64,000 nt of DNA from a bacterium. GTDB lineage: Bacteria > Patescibacteriota > Patescibacteriia > HK-STAS-PATE-3. This document shows, in pieces, positions 23,364 through 59,034 of the stretch (positions are counted from its first letter, which is position 1; each line of letters opens with the position of its first letter). The notes beneath the pieces are model-generated. The model did no database searches. It had not been told where the DNA came from and saw only the letters and a list, made by a program, of their open reading frames with translations. The stretch lies in NCBI GenBank assembly GCA_043800725.1, contig JAZDMR010000034.1, forward strand, positions 4,374-68,373, written 5' to 3'. Both the position numbers and the translations under genes were made by a program.

Positions 23364-25898
23364 TTTGGTGATACTTTTTCCATGGAAAGCAATAAACCCA
23401 ACATTCTGAATAAATTTACTACCCATCTAAAGAAGACGCTGGAACAAGCTTCTGGTCTGGGTTTTGAATTGCGTCATGCTTTTGTAAATCCTGAGCATAT
23501 TTTATACGGATTATCCGAAAGCCGGGGCGGAATTGCCGCAGAAATACTATCCAAGGCCGGAGTAGATTCGGAAAAATTAAAAACATTCATCATTTCCCGC
23601 AATGAGCCCCTGACCGAGGATATCTCTTTTATCCCTGACCAGCTAAAATTATCCTTGCCGTCCAAAAAAGCCCTTGAAAAAGCCGGTCTGGTAGCTAATG
23701 AATACGCTCATAAATATGTTGGCACGGAACATTTGCTTTTTGGTCTCTTGGAATTAAATGATCCGACTTTGGAGAGATATTTTTCCGAACAGCAAATAAA
23801 GGTTAAAGAGGTTCGTCAGCATTTGATAGTAGTTTTAAAGAGCACTACCAAATTTCCAGACCTGACCGGCTTTTTTGATGTTTCAAAAGACAGCGAGGTG
23901 ATTGAGGAGGGTTTTATTAGCGACAAGGGGGGTAAAAATCCGGCCCTGGATTTCTTTACTAGCGATTTAACTGAGCCAAGCCTGCAAAAAACTATTGATC
24001 CGGTTATCGGTCGAATTAAAGAAATTGACCGGGTTATGCATATTTTATCCCGTAGAACAAAGAATAATCCGGTATTAATCGGTGATCCGGGTGTGGGTAA
24101 GACTGCTATCGTCGAAGGATTAGCAAAAAATATCACCGAGGGCAACGTGCCTGATGCCCTGAGAAATAAGCGCCTGCTTAATTTAGATATGAGCCTTTTG
24201 GTGGCCGGTACCATGTATCGCGGTGAATTTGAAAGCCGCCTGCGTCAAGTTATTGAGGAAATCAAATCCGATCCAAATATCATACTATTTATTGATGAGC
24301 TTCATACCATAGTGGGAACCGGCTCGGCCTCCGGCTCAATGGATGCGGCAAATATTCTCAAGCCGGCCCTGGCTAAAGGACAAATTAGATGTATTGGCGC
24401 TACTACCATTGATGAGTATCGTAAGCATATCGAAGCTGATGCTGCTTTGGAAAGGCGCTTTCAGCCGATTATGGTAGAAGAGCCCAGCCCAGAAGAAACT
24501 TTAACAATTTTAAAGGGAATCAAGCAAAACTATGAGCAGTTCCACCGCGTCTCAATTTCAGATGATGCTCTAGACTCAGCCGTTCAACTGAGCGTCAGGT
24601 ATATCCAAGATAAATTTTTGCCGGATAAAGCAATTGATCTTCTGGATGAAGCTTCTTCAAAACGAAAAATCAATCGTAAAAAAAGCCCTCTGGTAAAGCA
24701 ATATGAACAAATAGAAGAAATCATTTCCGAACTAGTTAGTCAAAAGCAAGCCGCTGTTAAAGAAGAAAACTTTGACCGGGCGATAACGATAAAACAGCAG
24801 GAAATGCTAGCTCGGCGCAAGCAACAAAAAATCAGAGAGAAAATGCTCAAAGAAGAACAGCGATTTGAGGGCACTATCACAGATCAAGATATTGCTGATG
24901 TCGTGGCCCGAACGACCGGAATTCCGGTCGAGGATCTGCTTAAAGAAGAAAAGCAAAAGCTGCTTAAACTGGAACAGTCATTAAACAGCCAAATTATCGG
25001 ACAAAATGAAGCTATTGAAAAAATCGCTAATTTTATCAGGCGCTCCCGGGTAGGCTTAAGCCATCCTAACAAGCCAATTGCTTCTTTTATATTCCTGGGC
25101 CCGTCCGGGGTAGGAAAAACTGAAACTGCAAAAAAAATCGCTGAAACTATTTTTGAGAATTCCAAATCGCTGATTAGAATTGATATGTCGGAATTTAGCG
25201 AAAGTTTCACCTCTTCTAAGCTGATCGGCGCCCCGGCTGGTTACGTGGGCTACAAAGACCAGAATTCTCTGACCGATCTGGTCAAAAGAAAGCCTTACTC
25301 GGTAATATTGTTAGACGAAATTGAAAAAGCTCATCCGGATATTTTTAATATTTTTTTGCAAGTGCTTGACGAAGGACAGCTGACTGACGGAGGCGGCCGG
25401 ACTGTGAATTTTAAAAACACCCTTATAATTATGACTTCCAACGTTGGGGTAGCTGAGCTTAATAATACAGCCAGGATGGGCTTTTCTGCTCCAGACGATT
25501 ACGCCGATAGCAACCTGGAGACCGAATATCAAAGAGTCAAAGAGCAGGTTCTCAAGGATCTGGAAAAAAAATTCCGACCGGAGTTTCTAAACCGTTTGGA
25601 CGAAATAATCGTTTTCCGGCCTCTCACTCAATCAGACGTTATCAAAATCGTCCGTTTGCAGATTGCTGAGCTGCAGGAGCGCCTAAAAGATCAAGAAATA
25701 GCTATCTCTGTCACACCGGCTGCTGAAAAGCTGATTGCCAAACAAGGATTTAAGCCGGAATACGGCGCTCGTGCAGTCCGTCGGGTAATCCAAAGCTCCA
25801 TTGAAAATCCTTTGGCTGGAAAACTGCTTGATAACGCCAATAATCAAGGACGCAAGATTGTAGTTGACGCTGAACAGGATAAAGTTATACTAAAATAA
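23337..25898 (+). CDS. clpC: ClpC/ClpB-family AAA+ chaperone ATPase (Clp N-domain repeats + two AAA modules). The probable true start is the ATG at 23382 (MESNKP...).
   Basis: Walker A motifs GDPGVGKT and GPSGVGKT. Walker B motifs ILFIDELH and [10 protein letters not shown]. Clp-N repeat region ([25 protein letters not shown]). Confidence 0.85.
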
Positions 25899-25937
25899 CC
25901 AGATAAAAAGCAAGGTGGCGATCAGTCAGCTTGTTTT

Positions 25938-26642
25938 ATGCATCAATTGAATAATATATCTCAAGCGCTCCTTGATCTGATCTTTCCGATCACCTGCTTG
26001 GGTTGTCAAAAAGAAGGCCCTTGGCTGTGCGCTGACTGCTGCGCTAAGCTGCCCCGAACCAAGAACCAATGTCCTTTTTGCAATCAGCCCAATAATAATT
26101 CACAAACCTGCCCTCGCTGCGCCGCAAAGAATTCTTTATCAGGGGCTCTCTCTTGCTTTGCTTACCAGCATCCTTTGGTCAAATCTTTGATTCATGGCGC
26201 TAAATATCGCTATTGGAAATCCATCCTGCCTCAACTTGCCCAACAAATGGCTAAAAAAGTCGAGCAAAATAATAAAATTATCAACATTAAAAATTCCTGG
26301 GTAATCACCCCGGTTCCTTTACATAGATCCAAACACAAAATAAGGGGGTATAATCAATCACTGTTATTAGCGCAAGGTATTTCTGCTTACTTGGACGCTC
26401 CCCTTTCTAGGGATTTGGTTCGATCAACCAATACTCAAGCACAAGCCAAGCTTGGTAAACAGGCAAGATTTGCCAATGTGAATGGGGTATTTTCATTAAA
26501 ATCGAATATTGATTTTTCAAGCAAATCTGTTATAATCATCGATGATGTGTTCACTACAGGAGCTACCCTGGATTCAGCAGCTCGGATCTGCCAAGAGCAC
26601 GGCGCCAAAAAGGTTTGGGGACTTACTTTTGCCCATGGATAG
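25938..26642 (+). CDS. comF: ComF-family phosphoribosyltransferase (competence protein ComFC-like, 234 aa).
   Basis: N-terminal double zinc-ribbon (CLGCQKEGPWLCADCC...CPFCNQ...CPRC) and a C-terminal PRTase motif (VIIIDDVFTTGATL). Confidence 0.75.
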   Translation: MHQLNNISQALLDLIFPITCLGCQKEGPWLCADCCAKLPRTKNQCPFCNQPNNNSQTCPRCAAKNSLSGALSCFAYQHPLVKSLIHGAKYRYWKSILPQLAQQMAKKVEQNNKIINIKNSWVITPVPLHRSKHKIRGYNQSLLLAQGISAYLDAPLSRDLVRSTNTQAQAKLGKQARFANVNGVFSLKSNIDFSSKSVIIIDDVFTTGATLDSAARICQEHGAKKVWGLTFAHG

Positions 26643-26649
26643 TAATACC

Positions 26650-26667
26650 AATACCAGGAGAGGTGCG
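26650..26667 (+). repeat. 18-nt exact copy of the 5' flank plus 5' acceptor region of tRNA-Ser(GCT) (AATACCAGGAGAGGTGCG); the second copy is at 26976..26993.
   Basis: Direct sequence comparison. This copy lies at the base of an imperfect hairpin (GGAGA-GGTGCG-TGTCC-AGACG-GGACA-TCTCC). Confidence 0.6.
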
Positions 26668-26982
26668 TGTCCAGACGGGACATCTCCCGCAGGCATGACT
26701 AAACCAAAACACTCATGTTCTACGTGTACTTTTTAAAAAAAAGTCAGCGGAATGGCGATTTATATATCGGATCTTGCGAGGATTTAACCATTCGCGATAA
26801 AAGGCATAATCTTGGTTTTGTACGGTCCATAAAAACAAATCAAACCTGGAAAACTAGTAGGCTATGAGAAGCATTCTACCTGCGGCGATGCGGTTCAACG
26901 TGAACGCTTTGTGAGCGCTTTCTTAAAACCGGTCAACAAAAAGAACAGGTAAAAAAAAGAGATTTGATAAATACTAATACCA

Positions 26983-27073
26983 GGAGAGGTGCGCCGAATG
27001 GTAAGGCAGCGGTTTGCTAAACCGTAACGGTCTTTAAAGCCGTTTGTGGGTTCGACTCCCACCCTCTCCGCCA
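26983..27073 (+). tRNA. tRNA-Ser (anticodon GCT), type II with a long variable arm and an encoded CCA.
   Basis: Acceptor GGAGAGG/CCTCTCC. Anticodon stem GCGGT/ACCGT with loop TTGCTAA. Long variable arm AACGGTCTTTAAAGCCGTT. T arm GTGGG-TTCGACT-CCCAC. Discriminator G followed by CCA. Confidence 0.8.
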
Positions 27074-27196
27074 CACTTCGCAAAAAGCTTCGTATGGCTC
27101 GAAGCTACATAATCCGACATTTAATACAATAAGCTAGGACGACATAAATAGTAAAACGAAGTGTGTAACCCGGAATAAAAGTGAAGGGTTACCAAA

Positions 27197-27436
27197 ATGA
27201 ATAATATGCATACGGTATATTTACTAAAATTATCTAATAATAAAATATACACTTGCTCAACTCCGAATATTCAACGAAGAATACAAGAGAACAATAAAGG
27301 ACTTTCTCAAGCAACTCGAAAATATACTCCCGTAAAACTACTCTGGTATTGAGTCTTCCCTAATAGACTAACTGCTCGTAGATTTGAGCGCTACCTAAAA
27401 ATGGCTCTGGACAAGCATTCCGGACTAAACGTCTAA
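27197..27436 (+). pseudogene. GIY-YIG nuclease-superfamily small ORF (YhbQ/UPF0213-like, ~79 aa) interrupted by an in-frame TGA at 27350-27352.
   Basis: Translation MNNMHTVYLLKLSNNKIYTCSTPNIQRRIQENNKGLSQATRKYTPVKLLWY-[TGA]-VFPNRLTARRFERYLKMALDKHSGLNV. The GIY-YIG pattern (VYLL...KIY.G.T.N...R...H) spans both sides of the stop in a single frame. Neither half is 60 aa, so the ORF track misses it. Confidence 0.5.
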
Positions 27437-27585
27437 TAACTCAGAGTTTATTTAATCCTAACACTCAATGATAACATTAAGGGTGGGCTGGCTGAGTGGT
27501 CTTCACCGCCAAGCGGGATCCCGCCTTCTATATTATAAATATCCAGCGAGGCGGGAAAAGCGACGGTCTTGTCCCGCAGCATGGT

Positions 27586-27675
27586 GGAGGCGTGACAGAG
27601 TGGACGATTGTACCGGTCTTGAAAACCGGAGTGCCTGAAAGGGCACCGGAGGTTCGAATCCTCCCGCCTCCGCCA
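27586..27675 (+). tRNA. tRNA-Ser (anticodon TGA), type II, with an encoded CCA.
   Basis: Acceptor GGAGGCG/CGCCTCC. D stem ACAG/TTGT. Anticodon stem CCGGT/ACCGG with loop CTTGAAA. Long variable arm AGTGCCTGAAAGGGCACC. T arm GGAGG-TTCGAAT-CCTCC. Discriminator G followed by CCA. Confidence 0.8.
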
Positions 27676-27688
27676 TGCTGCGGGAGAA

Positions 27689-27703
27689 TCCACCCTCTCC
27701 GCC
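27689..27703 (+). repeat. Degenerate copy of the 3' end of tRNA-Ser(GCT) (TCCACCCTCTCCGCC; the tRNA has CCCACCCTCTCCGCC at 27059..27073).
   Basis: Direct sequence comparison: 14/15 identity to the T-arm and acceptor 3' strand of the tRNA at 26983..27073. Confidence 0.5.
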
Positions 27704-27766
27704 TTCTTACGGAATAATGATGCTTCTCCCATCGCCAATTAAATAATTTTTTAACGAAATAAACAT

Positions 27767-28258
27767 ATGCCCGAAGAAAACAACGATTTCGGAAAAGTGC
27801 TAATGTCCTGGGAATTCCCCTCGCACATCAAACAAAAAAGAAATCGACGCTGGTACACTATTGCCGGAATAATCGGTGGATTAAGCTTTGCTTTCGCGGT
27901 AATCACCCTGAACTTTCTGTTTGCTTTCATCCTGATCATGATCGTACTTATTATGGTTATGCAGAATCGACAAGAACCGAGTAAGATTATCTGCAACATT
28001 ACCGAGGATGGCATAAAGATGGCTGATGATTTTTTTAAGTATGATGATCTGAAGGAGTTTTGGATTGCCTATAAACCGCCTGAGGTGAAAAAATTGTATC
28101 TTATCTTTAGAAGCTCGCTGAGACCCATGCTAATCATCCCGCTTGAGGAACAGAATCCTTTAAAAATACGCAAAGTTTTACTGGTTTATTTGGATGAAAA
28201 CTTGTCTCAAGAAGATGAAACAACCACTGAAGCCCTGGGTCGTTTACTTAAATTCTAA
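27767..28258 (+). CDS. Hypothetical membrane protein (163 aa).
   Basis: Two hydrophobic helices (IAGIIGGLSFAFAVITLNFLFAFILIMIVLIMV). No recognisable motif. Confidence 0.5.
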   Translation: MPEENNDFGKVLMSWEFPSHIKQKRNRRWYTIAGIIGGLSFAFAVITLNFLFAFILIMIVLIMVMQNRQEPSKIICNITEDGIKMADDFFKYDDLKEFWIAYKPPEVKKLYLIFRSSLRPMLIIPLEEQNPLKIRKVLLVYLDENLSQEDETTTEALGRLLKF

Positions 28259-28280
28259 TTTTAAAGATACCAGCGCCAAA

Positions 28281-28351
28281 GGTGGATCAGCCTATAGCTG
28301 AGGATAGAGCACAGGCTTGCTCTCGCCTTTCGGCGGTATAAACTCCGCCTT
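28281..28351 (+). other. Degenerate tRNA-Arg-like fragment (pseudo-tRNA) immediately upstream of the intact tRNA-Arg.
   Basis: TATAGCTGAGGATAGAGCACAGGCTTGC closely matches the D-arm and anticodon-arm region of the downstream tRNA (TAGCTCAGTTGGATAGAGCGCAGGCTTGC), but the acceptor and T arms cannot be folded. Confidence 0.3.
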
Positions 28352-28367
28352 TAACATTCATGATATG

Positions 28368-28444
28368 CGCCCGTAGCTCAGTTGGATAGAGCGCAGGCTT
28401 GCGGAGCCTGAGGTCGTAGGTTCGATCCCTGCCGGGCGCACCAG
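28368..28444 (+). tRNA. tRNA-Arg (anticodon GCG as read) with an encoded CCA.
   Basis: Acceptor GCGCCCG/CGGGCGC. D arm GCTC-AGTTGGATA-GAGC. Anticodon stem CAGGC/GCCTG with loop TTGCGGA. T arm GTAGG-TTCGATC-CCTGC. Discriminator A followed by CCA. Confidence 0.8.
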
Positions 28445-28472
28445 AAATATTTAAATCAAACAATAATTTCAC

Positions 28473-29429
28473 ATGATACAGGCGATTATCCTACTCATTC
28501 TCGGACTCGGTTTACTCATCGGCGGCGCTGAAGCGCTGGTCCGAGGTTCTGCCTCGCTAGCCCGTCGATGGGGTATTACGCCGCTGGTTATCGGACTGAC
28601 AGTGGTGGCTTTTGGCACCTCTGCTCCAGAAATGATTGTTAACTTGTTTTCGGCCATCAGGGGGTCGGGAGACATTGCCCTGGGCAACATCTTGGGCAGT
28701 AATACAGCCAACATATTGCTGATTTTAGGAATCGCTGCCTTCCTGCGTCCCATGATGGTTAAGCACAGCACTACTTGGAAAGAAATTCCGTTCGCTTTTT
28801 TAGCAGTCGTGCTTCTGTTGGTTCTAGGAAATGATATTTTCTTTGACGGTTTTTCAAGAAACTACATTTCCCGTACTGACGGACTGGTCTTGATAGCCAT
28901 TTTCGCAATATTTATTTATTACTCATTAAGTACTGCCCGAGTTCAAGGCGATCCTGGTGAAAAAATTACGGTATACCATAAATCTAACTCTCTTATCCTT
29001 GTTATTACCGGATTAATCGGTCTATTCATTGGCGGTAAATTACTGGTAGACAACGCTGTTATTCTGGCCACCTTGGCCGGGATATCAGAATCGTTAATTG
29101 GCTTAACTATTATCGCTGTCGGCACTTCTTTGCCTGAATTGGCTACTTCAGTGATTGCTGTTTTACGCGGGCACAATGATATCGCCATCGGTAATGTGGT
29201 TGGCTCGAATATCTTCAACGTATTCTGGGTACTGGGCGGTACGGCCATTATCGCTCCTCTGTCTTACAACTCGGTGATTAATATTGACGTCATAGTGGCT
29301 ATTGCCGCGACTATCCTGCTATTTATAGCAATCTTTGTCGGCAAAAAACATGTTTTGGCCCGCGGTGAAGGTATTGCTTTTATATTGCTTTATCTCATCT
29401 ATATCGGCTACTTAATCGCTCGGGGCTAA
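28473..29429 (+). CDS. CaCA-family sodium/calcium exchanger (YrbG-like, 318 aa).
   Basis: Two alpha-repeat signatures ([12 protein letters not shown] and [11 protein letters not shown]), the motifs FGTSAPEM and VGTSLPEL, and ~10 TM helices. Confidence 0.8.
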
Positions 29430-58773: not shown

Positions 58774-59034
58774 GGTGGTGATGTTAGTTGATGATTGGTA
58801 ACTAGTAGTTACGAATTATTTAGTTACTTATTTAATGTATATTAATTATGTTACTTTCTTACTGACTTTTCCGCCTGAGGCGGATGCGCCTATGGCGCAA
58901 GTCAGGTTGTTAATTAATGCGCCTACGCTGCTCCCTACTGCACTCGCCTGACAGCAAAGTTGTTGGCGGGCAGGAAAGTGATTTTGAAGCTACTAGTAAT
59001 TGCTATTTATTAATTAATAATTGATAACTTTTTA

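What the first reader, a model, noticed from the sequence alone, without database searches (positions are those of the whole stretch)
26644..27712. tRNA-Ser(GCT) gene bracketed by duplicated fragments of its own 5' and 3' ends
An exact 18-nt copy of the 5' flank plus acceptor (AATACCAGGAGAGGTGCG) lies 326 nt upstream at 26650..26667, directly after the comF stop. A 14/15 copy of the tRNA 3' end (TCCACCCTCTCCGCC) lies ~630 nt downstream at 27689..27703. The interval between tRNA and 3' copy contains a degraded GIY-YIG nuclease gene and a second tRNA-Ser. Partial tRNA duplications of this kind are the classic scars of site-specific integration and excision at tRNA genes, or of homing-endonuclease activity.
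Basis: partly seen in the sequence, partly recalled or inferred. Interest (0 to 1): 0.5.

Follow-up and report, generated by a model that had tools for sequence, protein, structure and literature searches.

The report
Dead nuclease cassettes flanking tRNA-Ser
The tRNA-Ser gene is bracketed by bits of itself because two tiny, now-dead GIY-YIG nuclease gene cassettes sit on either side of it; intact versions of the upstream type lie beside tRNA genes in about 76 of 80 related loci, a pattern I could not find described.

Summary
A 24-nt direct repeat (23/24; its last 11 nt are tRNA-Ser(GCT) positions 1-11) lies at 26644-26667 and 26970-26993. An exact 14-nt copy of the tRNA 3' end lies at 27690-27703.

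It lies between the 5' copy and the tRNA, preceded by a decayed GC-rich double hairpin and a further 7 nt of the tRNA (positions 35-41).

This layout recurs. In 76 of 80 related genome loci, an intact ~80-aa GIY-YIG gene lies within 300 nt of a same-strand tRNA. Most of these carry a partial copy of that tRNA, interrupted in a loop by a ~30-nt double palindrome whose stems covary. Several tRNA-Cys loci also have a hairpin-interrupted 3' partial copy downstream, so the intact tRNA is bracketed as here.

psi2 and its leader belong to a sister subfamily that sits downstream of tRNAs, sometimes followed by a copy of the tRNA 3' end.

No integrase or intron is present. I read the locus as fossils of selfish, homing-type nuclease cassettes that target tRNA genes. 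The mechanism is inferred, and the origin of the 3' fragment is uncertain.

The parts
26644..26667 (+). Upstream partial copy of tRNA-Ser(GCT): 13 nt of 5' flank plus tRNA positions 1-11. It is copy 1 of the 24-nt direct repeat.
   Evidence: (D2). It aligns with the partial tRNA copies that precede intact GIY-YIG genes in L004, L005, L009 and L015.
26668..26698 (+). Decayed double-hairpin palindrome: TGTCCagacGGGACA, then TCTCCCgcaGGcatGA.
   Evidence: Homologous to the 30-nt and 61-nt double hairpins of L015 and L009. In intact relatives the two 6-3-6 palindromes covary.
26699..26705 (+). CTAAACC, equal to tRNA-Ser(GCT) positions 35-41: the tRNA copy resumes after the hairpin.
   Evidence: t35-41 at 26699-26705, 7/7. 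L015 and L009 show the same resumption.
26715..26966 (+). psi1: GIY-YIG pseudogene of the FLKTGQQK subfamily, with two frameshifts. It is 68% identical to intact P0121 when reconstructed.
26970..27073 (+). Copy 2 of the direct repeat (26970-26993) and the intact tRNA-Ser(GCT) gene (26983-27073).
27074..27196 (+). Structured leader of the downstream-type cassette. One hairpin overlaps the tRNA 3' end (GCCACAC...GTATGGC). CACACTTCGC pairs with ACGAAGTGTG at long range, and a GTAACCC/GGGTTAC hairpin precedes the ATG.
   Evidence: Homologous to the leaders between a tRNA and intact psi2-like genes in L084, L085, L086, L089 and L090.
27206..27438 (+). psi2: GIY-YIG pseudogene of the YLKTGSG subfamily. 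It has an in-frame TGA at 27350-27352 and a frameshift near 27397, and has lost conserved motif residues (YIG reads YTC; EH reads EN). It is 63% identical to intact P0122.
27569..27688 (+). tRNA-Ser(TGA) (27586-27675) enclosed by a leader/trailer stem, CCCGCAGCATGG paired with CCATGCTGCGGG.
   Evidence: (I1). The same stem, with compensating changes (CCGTGCCATGG/CCATGGCACGG), flanks the orthologous gene in L004.
27686..27703 (+). 3' fragment: an exact 14-nt copy (27690-27703) of the T-stem and acceptor 3' strand of tRNA-Ser(GCT), preceded by a GAATCC T-loop-like sequence.
   Evidence: (D8). No extension downstream. Absent from the orthologous locus L004.
28290..28350 (+). Decayed partial copy of tRNA-Arg(GCG) (positions 3-36 at 28290-28320) followed by a small GC hairpin. 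It lies just upstream of the intact tRNA-Arg gene, with no ORF left between them.
   Evidence: (0 of 300 shuffles).

Best explanation
The bracket is the fossil of two small selfish cassettes that live beside tRNA genes.

Each cassette is an ~80-codon GIY-YIG nuclease gene with GC-rich hairpin palindromes and a partial copy of the neighbouring tRNA. The upstream type (psi1 family) reads: tRNA 5' part, double hairpin in a tRNA loop position, 5-13 more tRNA bases, nuclease gene, intact tRNA. The downstream type (psi2 family) reads: intact tRNA, structured leader, nuclease gene, and sometimes a hairpin plus a copy of the tRNA 3' end.

The proposed mechanism is inferred, not shown:
1. The nuclease breaks a cassette-free tRNA gene at or near a loop position.
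2. The break is repaired from a cassette-bearing copy.
3. One intact tRNA is kept, and hairpin-interrupted partial copies are left on the outer side or sides.
4. The nuclease gene is transcribed with the tRNA.
5. Afterwards the nuclease gene decays and is eventually lost.

In this window both nuclease genes are dead, the hairpin is degraded, and the upstream partial copy has lost positions 12-34. The arrangement is therefore a relic, not an active element.
For: SHOWN:

1. Linkage to tRNA genes. In 76 of 80 genome loci holding psi1-family genes, a same-strand tRNA lies within 300 nt. In 65 the gene is directly upstream, and 41 of those are tRNA-Cys(GCA). In 49 of 80 metagenome loci of the psi2 family a same-strand tRNA is adjacent, upstream in 42.

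2. Partial tRNA copy. Most upstream-type loci carry a partial copy of the local tRNA, often 33-38 nt exact. It is split by a 30-nt insert (sometimes 20, 40 or 60 nt) at fixed positions: 33/34 or 34/35, 10/11, 16/17, 21/22, or the T loop. The tRNA copy resumes for 5-13 nt before the ATG.

3. The insert is two 6-3-6 palindromes. In them 99% of cells pair, 8 of 12 pairs show changes on both sides, and there are no one-sided (G-U type) changes. The loop consensus TNC and GNA are reverse complements of each other.

4. The window's 26644-26714 aligns with these leaders, and 27074-27196 aligns with psi2-type leaders.

5. Nine tRNA-Cys loci also have a hairpin-interrupted 3' partial copy 10-25 nt downstream of the intact tRNA. 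This gives the same bracket as in the window.

6. Hairpin class follows nuclease clade.

7. All stages of decay exist: intact genes, frameshifted genes (window), one cut down to its last 16 codons (L051), and absent (L070). About 17-20 loci show two GIY-like regions each, and several partial copies carry two or three hairpin inserts.

8. tRNA-Cys(GCA) and tRNA-Ser(GCT) are the main partners of one clade. Their anticodon arms share a similar sequence at the insertion point (GGTCTG|CAAAACC versus GGTTTG|CTAAACC).

9. The protein model (pLDDT 94) is closest to UPF0213 and to the Slx1 structure-specific nuclease domain.

10. Relatives differ by insertions and deletions. The orthologous locus L004 has an intact psi1 homologue but neither psi2 nor the 3' fragment. 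L015 has the two tRNA-Ser genes 21 nt apart.
Against: No cleavage, homing or presence/absence polymorphism between close strains was seen. The closest relatives of this genome are distant: the best ComF match is about 40% identical.

No pair of loci from different genomes exceeds about 82% nucleotide identity, so no recent transfer was caught. The cassette sits at the same comF-tRNA-Ser(GCT) position in the window, L004 and L005, which also fits long vertical inheritance.

The intact tRNA next to the cassette keeps the presumed target sequence, so a simple homing model does not explain immunity. An 80-aa protein has no separate DNA-binding domain. The origin of the hairpin, and of the short tRNA piece between hairpin and ORF, is unexplained.

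For the 3' fragment: it lies after tRNA-Ser(TGA), 245 nt from psi2. Its T-loop part resembles tRNA-Ser(TGA) more than tRNA-Ser(GCT). The closest psi2 relatives (L084-L089) have no such copy right after the ORF.
Confidence: 0.55

Rival explanations
1. A host-serving RNA-level module, not a mobile element. The partial tRNA copy and the GC hairpins would be processing, stability or regulatory signals for a small nuclease gene co-transcribed with the tRNA and inherited vertically. The window would then simply hold decayed copies.
For: The cassette occupies the same comF-tRNA-Ser(GCT) position in distant relatives. Loci differ by about 25-30% at the nucleotide level, with no recent-transfer pairs. 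The hairpins sit 3-20 nt before an A-rich region and the ATG. The partial copy is often 100% identical to the local tRNA, as if constrained. GC-rich palindromes flanking tRNA genes are known in Neurospora mitochondria (reference list of PMC2800124).
Against: Stem changes are strictly Watson-Crick, with no G-U steps, and the two loops are reverse complements. That fits a DNA palindrome better than an RNA helix. The same hairpins occur downstream of tRNAs in 3' partial copies, and in an ordinary intergenic region of the window (58870-58899), where no ORF follows. The family sits beside at least 15-20 different tRNA species, each with its own partial copy. Tandem arrays, multiple inserts, pseudogenes, truncated remnants and empty sites are common. 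No Rfam family matches.
Confidence: 0.2
2. Plain local duplication and decay of tRNA-Ser genes through slippage or unequal recombination in a tRNA cluster. The GIY-YIG pseudogenes would be neighbours by accident.
For: The region is a tRNA cluster with paralogous tRNA-Ser genes that share 3' sequences (D1). The 3' fragment cannot be assigned to one parent gene. tRNA-Arg also has a decayed partial copy with no ORF beside it.
Against: The same ordered layout (partial copy, hairpin, resumed tRNA bases, ORF, tRNA) recurs in dozens of unrelated genomes and tRNA species. The window's leader sequences are homologous to those of intact cassettes.
Confidence: 0.08
3. Scars (attL/attR) of a tyrosine- or serine-integrase element that integrated into tRNA-Ser and later lost almost all its content.
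For: A direct repeat of the tRNA 3' end downstream of an intact tRNA is what integrase-mediated insertion leaves (established knowledge). The 14-nt exact copy exists.
Against: There is no integrase remnant among the ORFs of 26644-27712. The repeat-bounded interval is only 630 nt. The 5' repeat has no counterpart in that model and is explained by the GIY-YIG leader. Relatives with the same kind of repeats likewise carry only ~80-aa GIY-YIG genes.
Confidence: 0.03

Closest known systems
Mitochondrial double-hairpin elements (DHEs) and the mobile endonuclease-ORF/hybrid atp6 element of Allomyces
   Same: Both have short GC-rich elements that fold into two adjacent hairpins, are thought to be mobile, and insert into intergenic regions and structural RNA genes (PMC10085805 and PMC2800124). 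From my own recollection, not checked here, of Paquin et al. 1994 and 2000: the Allomyces macrogynus atp6 element carries an endonuclease ORF plus a replacement piece of the host gene, leaves the displaced resident piece as a fragment, and has DHEs at its borders. That is the same logic as a nuclease ORF, a partial gene duplicate and a double hairpin.
   Different: This case is bacterial (Patescibacteria-like and some Bacteroidota-like genomes), not mitochondrial. The target is a tRNA gene, not a protein gene. The nuclease is only ~80 aa. The hairpin sits at defined tRNA loop positions. No sequence homology to DHEs was tested.
Free-standing GIY-YIG homing endonucleases, e.g. phage T4 SegB in the tRNA gene cluster
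   Same: Both have a GIY-YIG nuclease gene lying among tRNA genes. SegB cleaves the tRNA gene region of a related phage and drives inheritance of its own region (PMC2330249, abstract seen).
   Different: SegB-type enzymes are larger and have DNA-binding regions. No partial tRNA duplications or hairpin modules are described for them. They act between co-infecting phages, not on cellular chromosomes.
Slx1 / UPF0213 (YhbQ, YazA, BH0048) minimal GIY-YIG nucleases
   Same: These are the best fold matches of the intact homologue P0121: BH0048 (E = 1.7e-3) and the Slx1 nuclease domain (TM 0.66-0.71, 22-31% identity). Slx1 cuts branched and stem-loop DNA (titles of PDB entries 6sei and 7cq4), which fits a hairpin- or cloverleaf-shaped target.
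   Different: Those proteins are housekeeping repair factors, or of unknown role, with no known link to tRNA genes or to repeats. Sequence similarity is weak (phmmer E = 0.78).
GIY-YIG ORFs in non-intron insertions of CPR rRNA genes
   Same: They occur in the same group of bacteria. The GIY-YIG ORFs lie in insertions that match neither group I nor group II introns. Most of the rRNA insertions surveyed in that paper sit at the tip or base of stem-loops of a structural RNA gene (PMC11270868).
   Different: Those are in rRNA genes, and that paper does not mention tRNA. Partial gene duplicates and double hairpins are not described there. The authors considered these GIY-YIG insertions to lie outside spread by homing.
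Integrase-mediated insertion at tRNA genes (attL/attR repeats)
   Same: Both keep an intact tRNA and leave a short direct repeat of its 3' end.
   Different: There is no integrase here. The intervals are 300-650 nt. Many loci duplicate the 5' part of the tRNA. Hairpin inserts mark the junctions.

Membership tests
tRNA-targeting integrase island | Integrase (tyrosine or serine recombinase) gene, or a remnant of one, inside the repeat-bounded interval | tested here: not met
   ORFs of 30 aa or more in 26644-27712 were listed. The only domain hits among the four ORFs scanned are GIY-YIG. tblastn maps the two pseudogenes.
tRNA-targeting integrase island | Direct repeat of the tRNA 3' part at the far end of the insert | tested here: met
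   An exact 14-mer lies at 27059-27072 and 27690-27703. It is short, and its parent gene is ambiguous.
GIY-YIG nuclease superfamily | GIY-YIG catalytic domain with conserved Tyr, Tyr, Gly, Arg, His/Asn and Glu | tested here: met
   Pfam PF01541 hits: psi2 at 2.6e-6 (above the cut-off) and psi1 at 1.3e-3 (below the cut-off). Intact homologues carry PF01541. Y5, Y17, R27 and E63 are invariant and G19 and H31 nearly invariant in the alignment. The model shows the GIY-YIG fold. Both window copies are pseudogenes.
Classical homing endonuclease gene (HEG) | Separate DNA-binding domain giving a long specific recognition site | tested here: not met
   Intact homologues are 77-120 aa, essentially the catalytic domain alone.
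Classical homing endonuclease gene (HEG) | Insertion at a fixed site of a conserved gene | tested here: met
   Junctions fall at fixed tRNA positions within each clade (33/34, 10/11, 16/17, 21/22, T loop).
Classical homing endonuclease gene (HEG) | Insertion destroys the enzyme's own target, giving immunity | tested here: not met
   An intact tRNA with the same sequence remains beside every cassette.
Classical homing endonuclease gene (HEG) | Presence/absence polymorphism between close relatives, and a cycle of invasion, decay and loss | tested here: inconclusive
   Intact, frameshifted, truncated and empty states exist across species. No close-strain pairs were available.
Classical homing endonuclease gene (HEG) | Demonstrated site-specific cleavage of the cassette-free allele | not testable with these tools
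   This needs biochemistry.
Double-hairpin elements (DHE-like palindromes) | Short GC-rich sequence folding into two adjacent hairpins, repeated in the genome, with structure conserved through compensating changes | tested here: met
   Covariation test on 17 modules. In 871 kb, 85 double 6-3-6 palindromes were found against 9 in shuffles; roughly 60 of them are of the GC-rich T...A|T...A type. The window copy at 26668-26698 is decayed, and an intact one lies at 58870-58899.
Double-hairpin elements (DHE-like palindromes) | Evidence of mobility (differential presence at orthologous sites) | tested here: inconclusive
   Partial copies carry one, two or three inserts at different loop positions in different genomes. 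No orthologous filled/empty pair was examined.
Group I intron in a tRNA gene | Group I ribozyme core between two tRNA exons that together make one tRNA | tested here: not met
   No intron family matched at E up to 10 in 26000-28800, or at E up to 1 in 14 related loci. An intact uninterrupted tRNA is present.

The most novel reading that the evidence does not exclude
An undescribed class of minimal bacterial mobile element. It would consist of an ~80-aa Slx1-like GIY-YIG nuclease gene plus a double-hairpin DNA palindrome. It would enter the loop positions of tRNA genes, recognising DNA shape as much as sequence, and duplicate or replace part of the gene so that one intact tRNA survives. It would ride on the tRNA's transcription. 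The intact tRNA would then lie inside the element, between hairpin-interrupted halves of the resident gene. That could make the element hard to lose.
Probability: 0.35. Interest if true: 0.8.

Novelty: new variant of a known kind. Interest (0 to 1): 0.62.

Why it matters
If the reading holds, tRNA genes in Patescibacteria (and some Bacteroidota-like genomes) host a large, unrecognised population of very small selfish cassettes.

- Annotation: the cassettes would explain many stray tRNA fragments and the short "GIY-YIG nuclease family protein" genes next to tRNAs in these small genomes.
- Biology: they would give a bacterial counterpart to the mitochondrial double-hairpin elements, whose mechanism has been open since the 1990s.
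- Experiment: an 80-residue nuclease with a defined DNA hairpin partner and a defined tRNA-gene target is a simple system for asking how structure-specific GIY-YIG enzymes can drive gene mobility.

For this window alone, the practical result is that the repeats are relics, with no active element and no integrase island.

Tried and rejected
- Group I intron, ribozyme or other known RNA: Rfam at permissive thresholds found only the tRNAs.
- Split or permuted tRNA made from the outer fragments: together they give only 11 + 16 nt of tRNA, and an intact tRNA is present.
- Integrase island: no such ORF.
- Extension of the 3' repeat into the downstream flank, as in L144-type loci: not significant.
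- Region 27480-27530 as a decayed tRNA-Ser copy: the local alignment is not better than shuffles (48-60 of 300).
- The CCCGCAG motif seen three times (26684, 27571 and its reverse complement at 27677) as evidence that tRNA-Ser(TGA) sits inside a cassette hairpin: the leader/trailer stem is conserved with compensating changes in L004, where it has no hairpin-module sequence. It is therefore a feature of that tRNA gene. The resemblance stays unexplained.
- Recent horizontal transfer between sampled genomes: none found.
- Orthologous comparison with close relatives: impossible, because the nearest ComF is about 40% identical.
- Literature: seven full-text searches found no description of GIY-YIG genes with partial tRNA copies in bacteria. 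One of them was wasted on terms that were too short.
- The first attempt to scan genomes with a mixed alignment failed for lack of a conserved stretch.
Full report
SOURCE AND OBSERVATION

The window is part of contig JBDRPK010000004.1 of MAG GCA_043827125.1. The best ComF relatives among 5.8 billion proteins are only 39-42% identical, so the lineage has no close sequenced relative.

- A 24-nt direct repeat (23/24) lies at 26644-26667 and 26970-26993. Its last 11 nt are positions 1-11 of tRNA-Ser(GCT) (gene at 26983-27073).
- An exact 14-mer, CCACCCTCTCCGCC, lies at 27059-27072 and 27690-27703.

Both are far beyond chance. A second, independent assembly is identical from 25322 to 27638. That covers everything except the 3' fragment.

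WHAT LIES BETWEEN THE REPEATS

There are two GIY-YIG pseudogenes, not one.
- psi1 (26715-26966) lies between the 5' fragment and the tRNA. It needs two frameshifts to read through, and when reconstructed it is 68% identical to an intact 81-aa protein, P0121.
- psi2 (27206-27438) lies after the tRNA. It has an in-frame TGA and a frameshift and is 63% identical to the intact 79-aa P0122.

The two are only 31% identical to each other and belong to different subfamilies. No integrase, intron or other known RNA is present.

THE KEY COMPARATIVE RESULT

I scanned one genome per species for psi1-family genes and obtained 80 loci, mostly labelled Patescibacteria.
- In 76 of them a same-strand tRNA lies within 300 nt.
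- In 65 the gene ends 0-130 nt (usually 1-20 nt) before the tRNA.
- 41 of those partners are tRNA-Cys(GCA) and 11 are tRNA-Ser(GCT).

With roughly 45 tRNAs per ~1-Mb genome, my own rough estimate of the chance expectation is a few per cent.

Upstream of the gene, most loci carry a partial copy of the very tRNA that follows, often 33-38 nt exact and starting 0-7 nt before tRNA position 1. A gap-tolerant alignment shows that this copy is interrupted by an insert of about 30 nt (sometimes 20, 40 or 60). The tRNA sequence then resumes for 5-13 nt, right up to the ATG. The insert sits at fixed positions:
- 33/34 or 34/35 (anticodon loop) in tRNA-Cys and in the tRNA-Ser(GCT) loci L009 and L015;
- 10/11 in L004, L005 and L046;
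- 16/17, 21/22 or the T loop in other clades.

The window fits this plan exactly. It reads tRNA positions 1-11, then a decayed insert, then CTAAACC (positions 35-41), then nine bases, then the ATG of psi1. It aligns column by column with L015, L009, L005 and L004. The window's partial copy lacks positions 12-34, which I take to be a later deletion.

L004 is a true orthologous locus. It has comF, the partial copy with hairpin, intact P0121, tRNA-Ser(GCT), tRNA-Ser(TGA), the same 163-aa membrane protein and tRNA-Arg(GCG). L005 shares the comF side.

THE INSERT

In the commonest class the insert is two adjacent 15-nt palindromes (6-bp stem, 3-nt loop), for example TCTCCCTACGGGAGA|TCTGCCGTAGGCAGA. 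Across 17 loci:
- 99% of cells pair;
- 8 of 12 pairs have changes on both sides;
- none of 500 shuffles and none of the slid registers comes close;
- there is not one one-sided (G-U type) change.

The loop consensus of the first hairpin (TNC) is the reverse complement of that of the second (GNA), so the module has a near two-fold symmetry. Both points suggest a DNA-level palindrome (hairpin or cruciform) rather than an RNA helix. This is an inference. No Rfam family matches.

Other nuclease clades carry other palindromes: a 36-40-nt pair built on GTCATTCGAC/GTCGAATGAC, and a perfect 20-mer, CCTGCCTGCCGGCAGGCAGG. Hairpin class follows nuclease clade. So hairpin and gene are inherited together.

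A scan of 871 kb found 85 double palindromes against 9 in shuffled sequence. Roughly 60 were of this GC-rich type, and about 45 of those lie next to a cassette. One intact example lies in an ordinary intergenic region of the window (58870-58899), closed by a CTGACTT/AAGTCAG stem.

THE BRACKET IS GENERAL

In nine tRNA-Cys loci (L023, L026, L030, L031, L032, L037, L039, L042, L044), a second hairpin module lies 10-25 nt downstream of the intact tRNA. It is flanked by tRNA positions ~26-33 on one side and 34-76 on the other, sometimes with a further hairpin in the T loop.

The full layout is therefore: 5' partial copy with hairpin, nuclease gene, intact tRNA, 3' partial copy with hairpin.

In L031 and L037 the short tRNA piece after the upstream hairpin shares differences with the downstream copy rather than with the intact tRNA. 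The two hairpin-bearing flanks are thus copies of each other. That is what one expects if a segment (nuclease gene plus intact tRNA) lies inside a hairpin-interrupted resident gene, or if the hairpin and its short flanks were duplicated on insertion. I cannot tell which.

THE DOWNSTREAM SUBFAMILY

A metagenome scan with psi2-like proteins gave 80 loci. In 42 the gene lies 27-230 nt downstream of a same-strand tRNA.

The spacer is a conserved structured leader. One hairpin overlaps the tRNA 3' end (GCCACAC...GTGTGGC), there is a long-range pairing (CACACTTCGC with GCGAAGTGTG), and a further hairpin precedes the ATG. Window 27074-27196 is homologous to it.

L084, L086 and L087 have the same order as the window: tRNA-Ser(GCT), leader, gene, tRNA-Ser(TGA).

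A minority of loci (L077, L078, L090, L108, L116, L140, L144, L164) have, after the gene, a hairpin followed by a copy of the tRNA 3' end, starting at the T loop or T stem and identical or nearly so (14/16 to 16/16).

THE 3' FRAGMENT

Three origins fit:
1. the downstream partial copy of the psi1-type bracket;
2. the distal 3' copy of a psi2-type cassette;
3. the tail of an older tRNA-Ser allele displaced when the present tRNA-Ser(TGA) arrived.

Its T-stem and acceptor part matches tRNA-Ser(GCT), but its T-loop part (GAATCC) matches tRNA-Ser(TGA) better. It lies 13 nt after tRNA-Ser(TGA), not after psi2. The repeat does not extend further, and L004 lacks it. I therefore rate its link to the cassettes as likely but not established (about 0.5). 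The 5' fragment's link is close to certain.

tRNA-Arg(GCG) also has a decayed partial copy with a small hairpin just upstream, and no ORF (28290-28350). It is a third relic in the same cluster.

WHAT THE PROTEIN IS

Intact homologues are 77-120 aa, essentially a bare GIY-YIG domain. A confident model of P0121 (pLDDT 94) is closest to the UPF0213 protein BH0048 and to the nuclease domain of Slx1, which cuts branched and stem-loop DNA. The I-TevI catalytic domain is a weaker match. Sequence-level links are weak.

This fits an enzyme that reads DNA shape, such as palindromic hairpins or the cloverleaf-prone DNA of a tRNA gene. That again is inference.

MECHANISM: WHAT IS SHOWN AND WHAT IS INFERRED

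Shown:
- the linkage to tRNA genes;
- the fixed junction positions;
- the co-inheritance of hairpin class and gene clade;
- the bracket around the intact tRNA;
- about 17-20 loci with two GIY-like regions, and partial copies with multiple inserts;
- the series of states at tRNA-Cys: intact, frameshifted, truncated (L051 keeps only the last 16 codons) and absent (L070).

Inferred:
- the nuclease breaks cassette-free tRNA genes;
- repair from a cassette-bearing copy spreads the unit, plausibly after DNA uptake (a competence gene, comF, lies next door);
- the gene is expressed from the tRNA transcript, since the intergenic gaps leave no room for a promoter;
- decay and loss follow fixation.

Unexplained:
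- how the intact neighbouring tRNA escapes cutting;
- where the hairpin first came from;
- why 5-13 tRNA bases always separate hairpin and ORF;
- whether the partial copy stays identical to the tRNA because insertion was recent, through gene conversion, or by selection.

The main rival is a host-serving RNA processing or regulatory module inherited vertically. It is favoured by the shared genomic position in distant relatives and by the lack of recent-transfer pairs. It is disfavoured by the Watson-Crick-only, two-fold-symmetric palindromes, by their occurrence away from any ORF, and by the abundance of relics.

COMPARISON WITH KNOWN SYSTEMS

The nearest analogue I know is in fungal mitochondria. 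GC-rich double-hairpin elements there are regarded as mobile (PMC10085805, PMC2800124). From my own memory, not verified here, the Allomyces atp6 element combines an endonuclease ORF, a replacement piece of the host gene, a displaced resident fragment and DHEs at its borders.

T4 SegB is a GIY-YIG homing enzyme in a tRNA cluster, but it has no duplications or hairpins (PMC2330249).

In CPR bacteria, GIY-YIG ORFs are known in non-intron insertions of rRNA genes; most of the rRNA insertions surveyed there lie at stem-loop tips or bases (PMC11270868). The same paper does not mention tRNA.

Group I introns of Patescibacteria tRNAs (PMC13011429) are a different thing.

Seven full-text searches found no description of the tRNA-linked cassettes. 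The library is incomplete, so prior description elsewhere cannot be excluded.

VERDICT

- Observation: confirmed.
- Interpretation: partly supported. The homing-nuclease reading is plausible; the integrase reading is not.
- What the locus is: an inactive relic, a decayed member of a widespread tRNA-associated arrangement that is apparently undescribed.
- Novelty: a new variant of a known kind (a nuclease-driven selfish element that duplicates part of its host gene).
- Interest: 0.62. Most of it comes from the family the locus reveals, not from this copy.

Noticed in passing
window 28290-28350: A decayed partial copy of tRNA-Arg(GCG) (positions 3-36, about 90% identical with a 3-nt gap) is followed by a small GC hairpin (TCGCC-TTTC-GGCGG). 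It lies just upstream of the intact tRNA-Arg gene, with no ORF between them. It looks like a third cassette relic.
   Followed up: partly
window 27569-27688; L004 5826-5935: tRNA-Ser(TGA) sits inside a 13-bp leader/trailer stem that extends the acceptor stem and pairs the encoded CCA with the leader. The orthologous gene in L004 has the same stem with compensating changes (CCGTGCCATGG/CCATGGCACGG). It is probably a precursor-processing helix.
   Followed up: partly
window 58855-58915: An intact double-hairpin palindrome (TCCGCCTGAGGCGGA|TGCGCCTATGGCGCA) is closed by a CTGACTT/AAGTCAG stem. It lies in the 260-nt gap between two giant minus-strand ORFs (1524 and 1629 aa). TCCGCC-type double palindromes occur at non-tRNA sites in several related loci (for example L012, L030, L051, L075, L093).
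   Followed up: partly
window 26684-26697, 27571-27582, 27677-27687: The motif TCCCGCAG(G)CATG, or its reverse complement, occurs three times: in the psi1 hairpin remnant, in the tRNA-Ser(TGA) leader and in its trailer. Whether the processing stem was remodelled from a cassette hairpin is unresolved.
   Followed up: partly
L052 1850-2420: On this 2.9-kb contig, tRNA-Tyr is present only as pieces. Positions 1-57, a hairpin and 6 more nt lie before the GIY-YIG gene. A 3' part lies after the gene, followed by a further hairpin-interrupted 3' part. No intact tRNA-Tyr was called. Either the functional copy is elsewhere, or the insertion is tolerated or removed in some way.
   Followed up: no
L012 2683-2703 and other tRNA-Cys loci (L011, L013, L017-L020, L025): The nuclease ORF runs into the tRNA gene. 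In L012 its last seven codons and the stop are encoded by tRNA positions 1-21, so the gene and the tRNA overlap on the same strand.
   Followed up: partly
L015 3671-3934; also L030, L047, L054, L063, L078, L080, L085, L096, L103, L112, L147: Two GIY-YIG genes or remnants lie in tandem beside one tRNA, as in the window. In L015 the first gene ends exactly where the partial tRNA copy of the second begins, as expected from serial insertion.
   Followed up: partly
L004, L015, L048, L061, L081 (labelled Gammaproteobacteria); L040 (labelled Nanoarchaeota): These MAG records carry loci that by gene content and synteny look like Patescibacteria. L004 is orthologous to the window. The organism labels or binning are doubtful.
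   Followed up: no
L026 4307-4520: Two tandem ~105-nt units lie downstream of tRNA-Cys. Each is a tRNA-Cys copy lacking the D arm and interrupted by a double hairpin at 33/34, showing that the interrupted copies can themselves be amplified.
   Followed up: no
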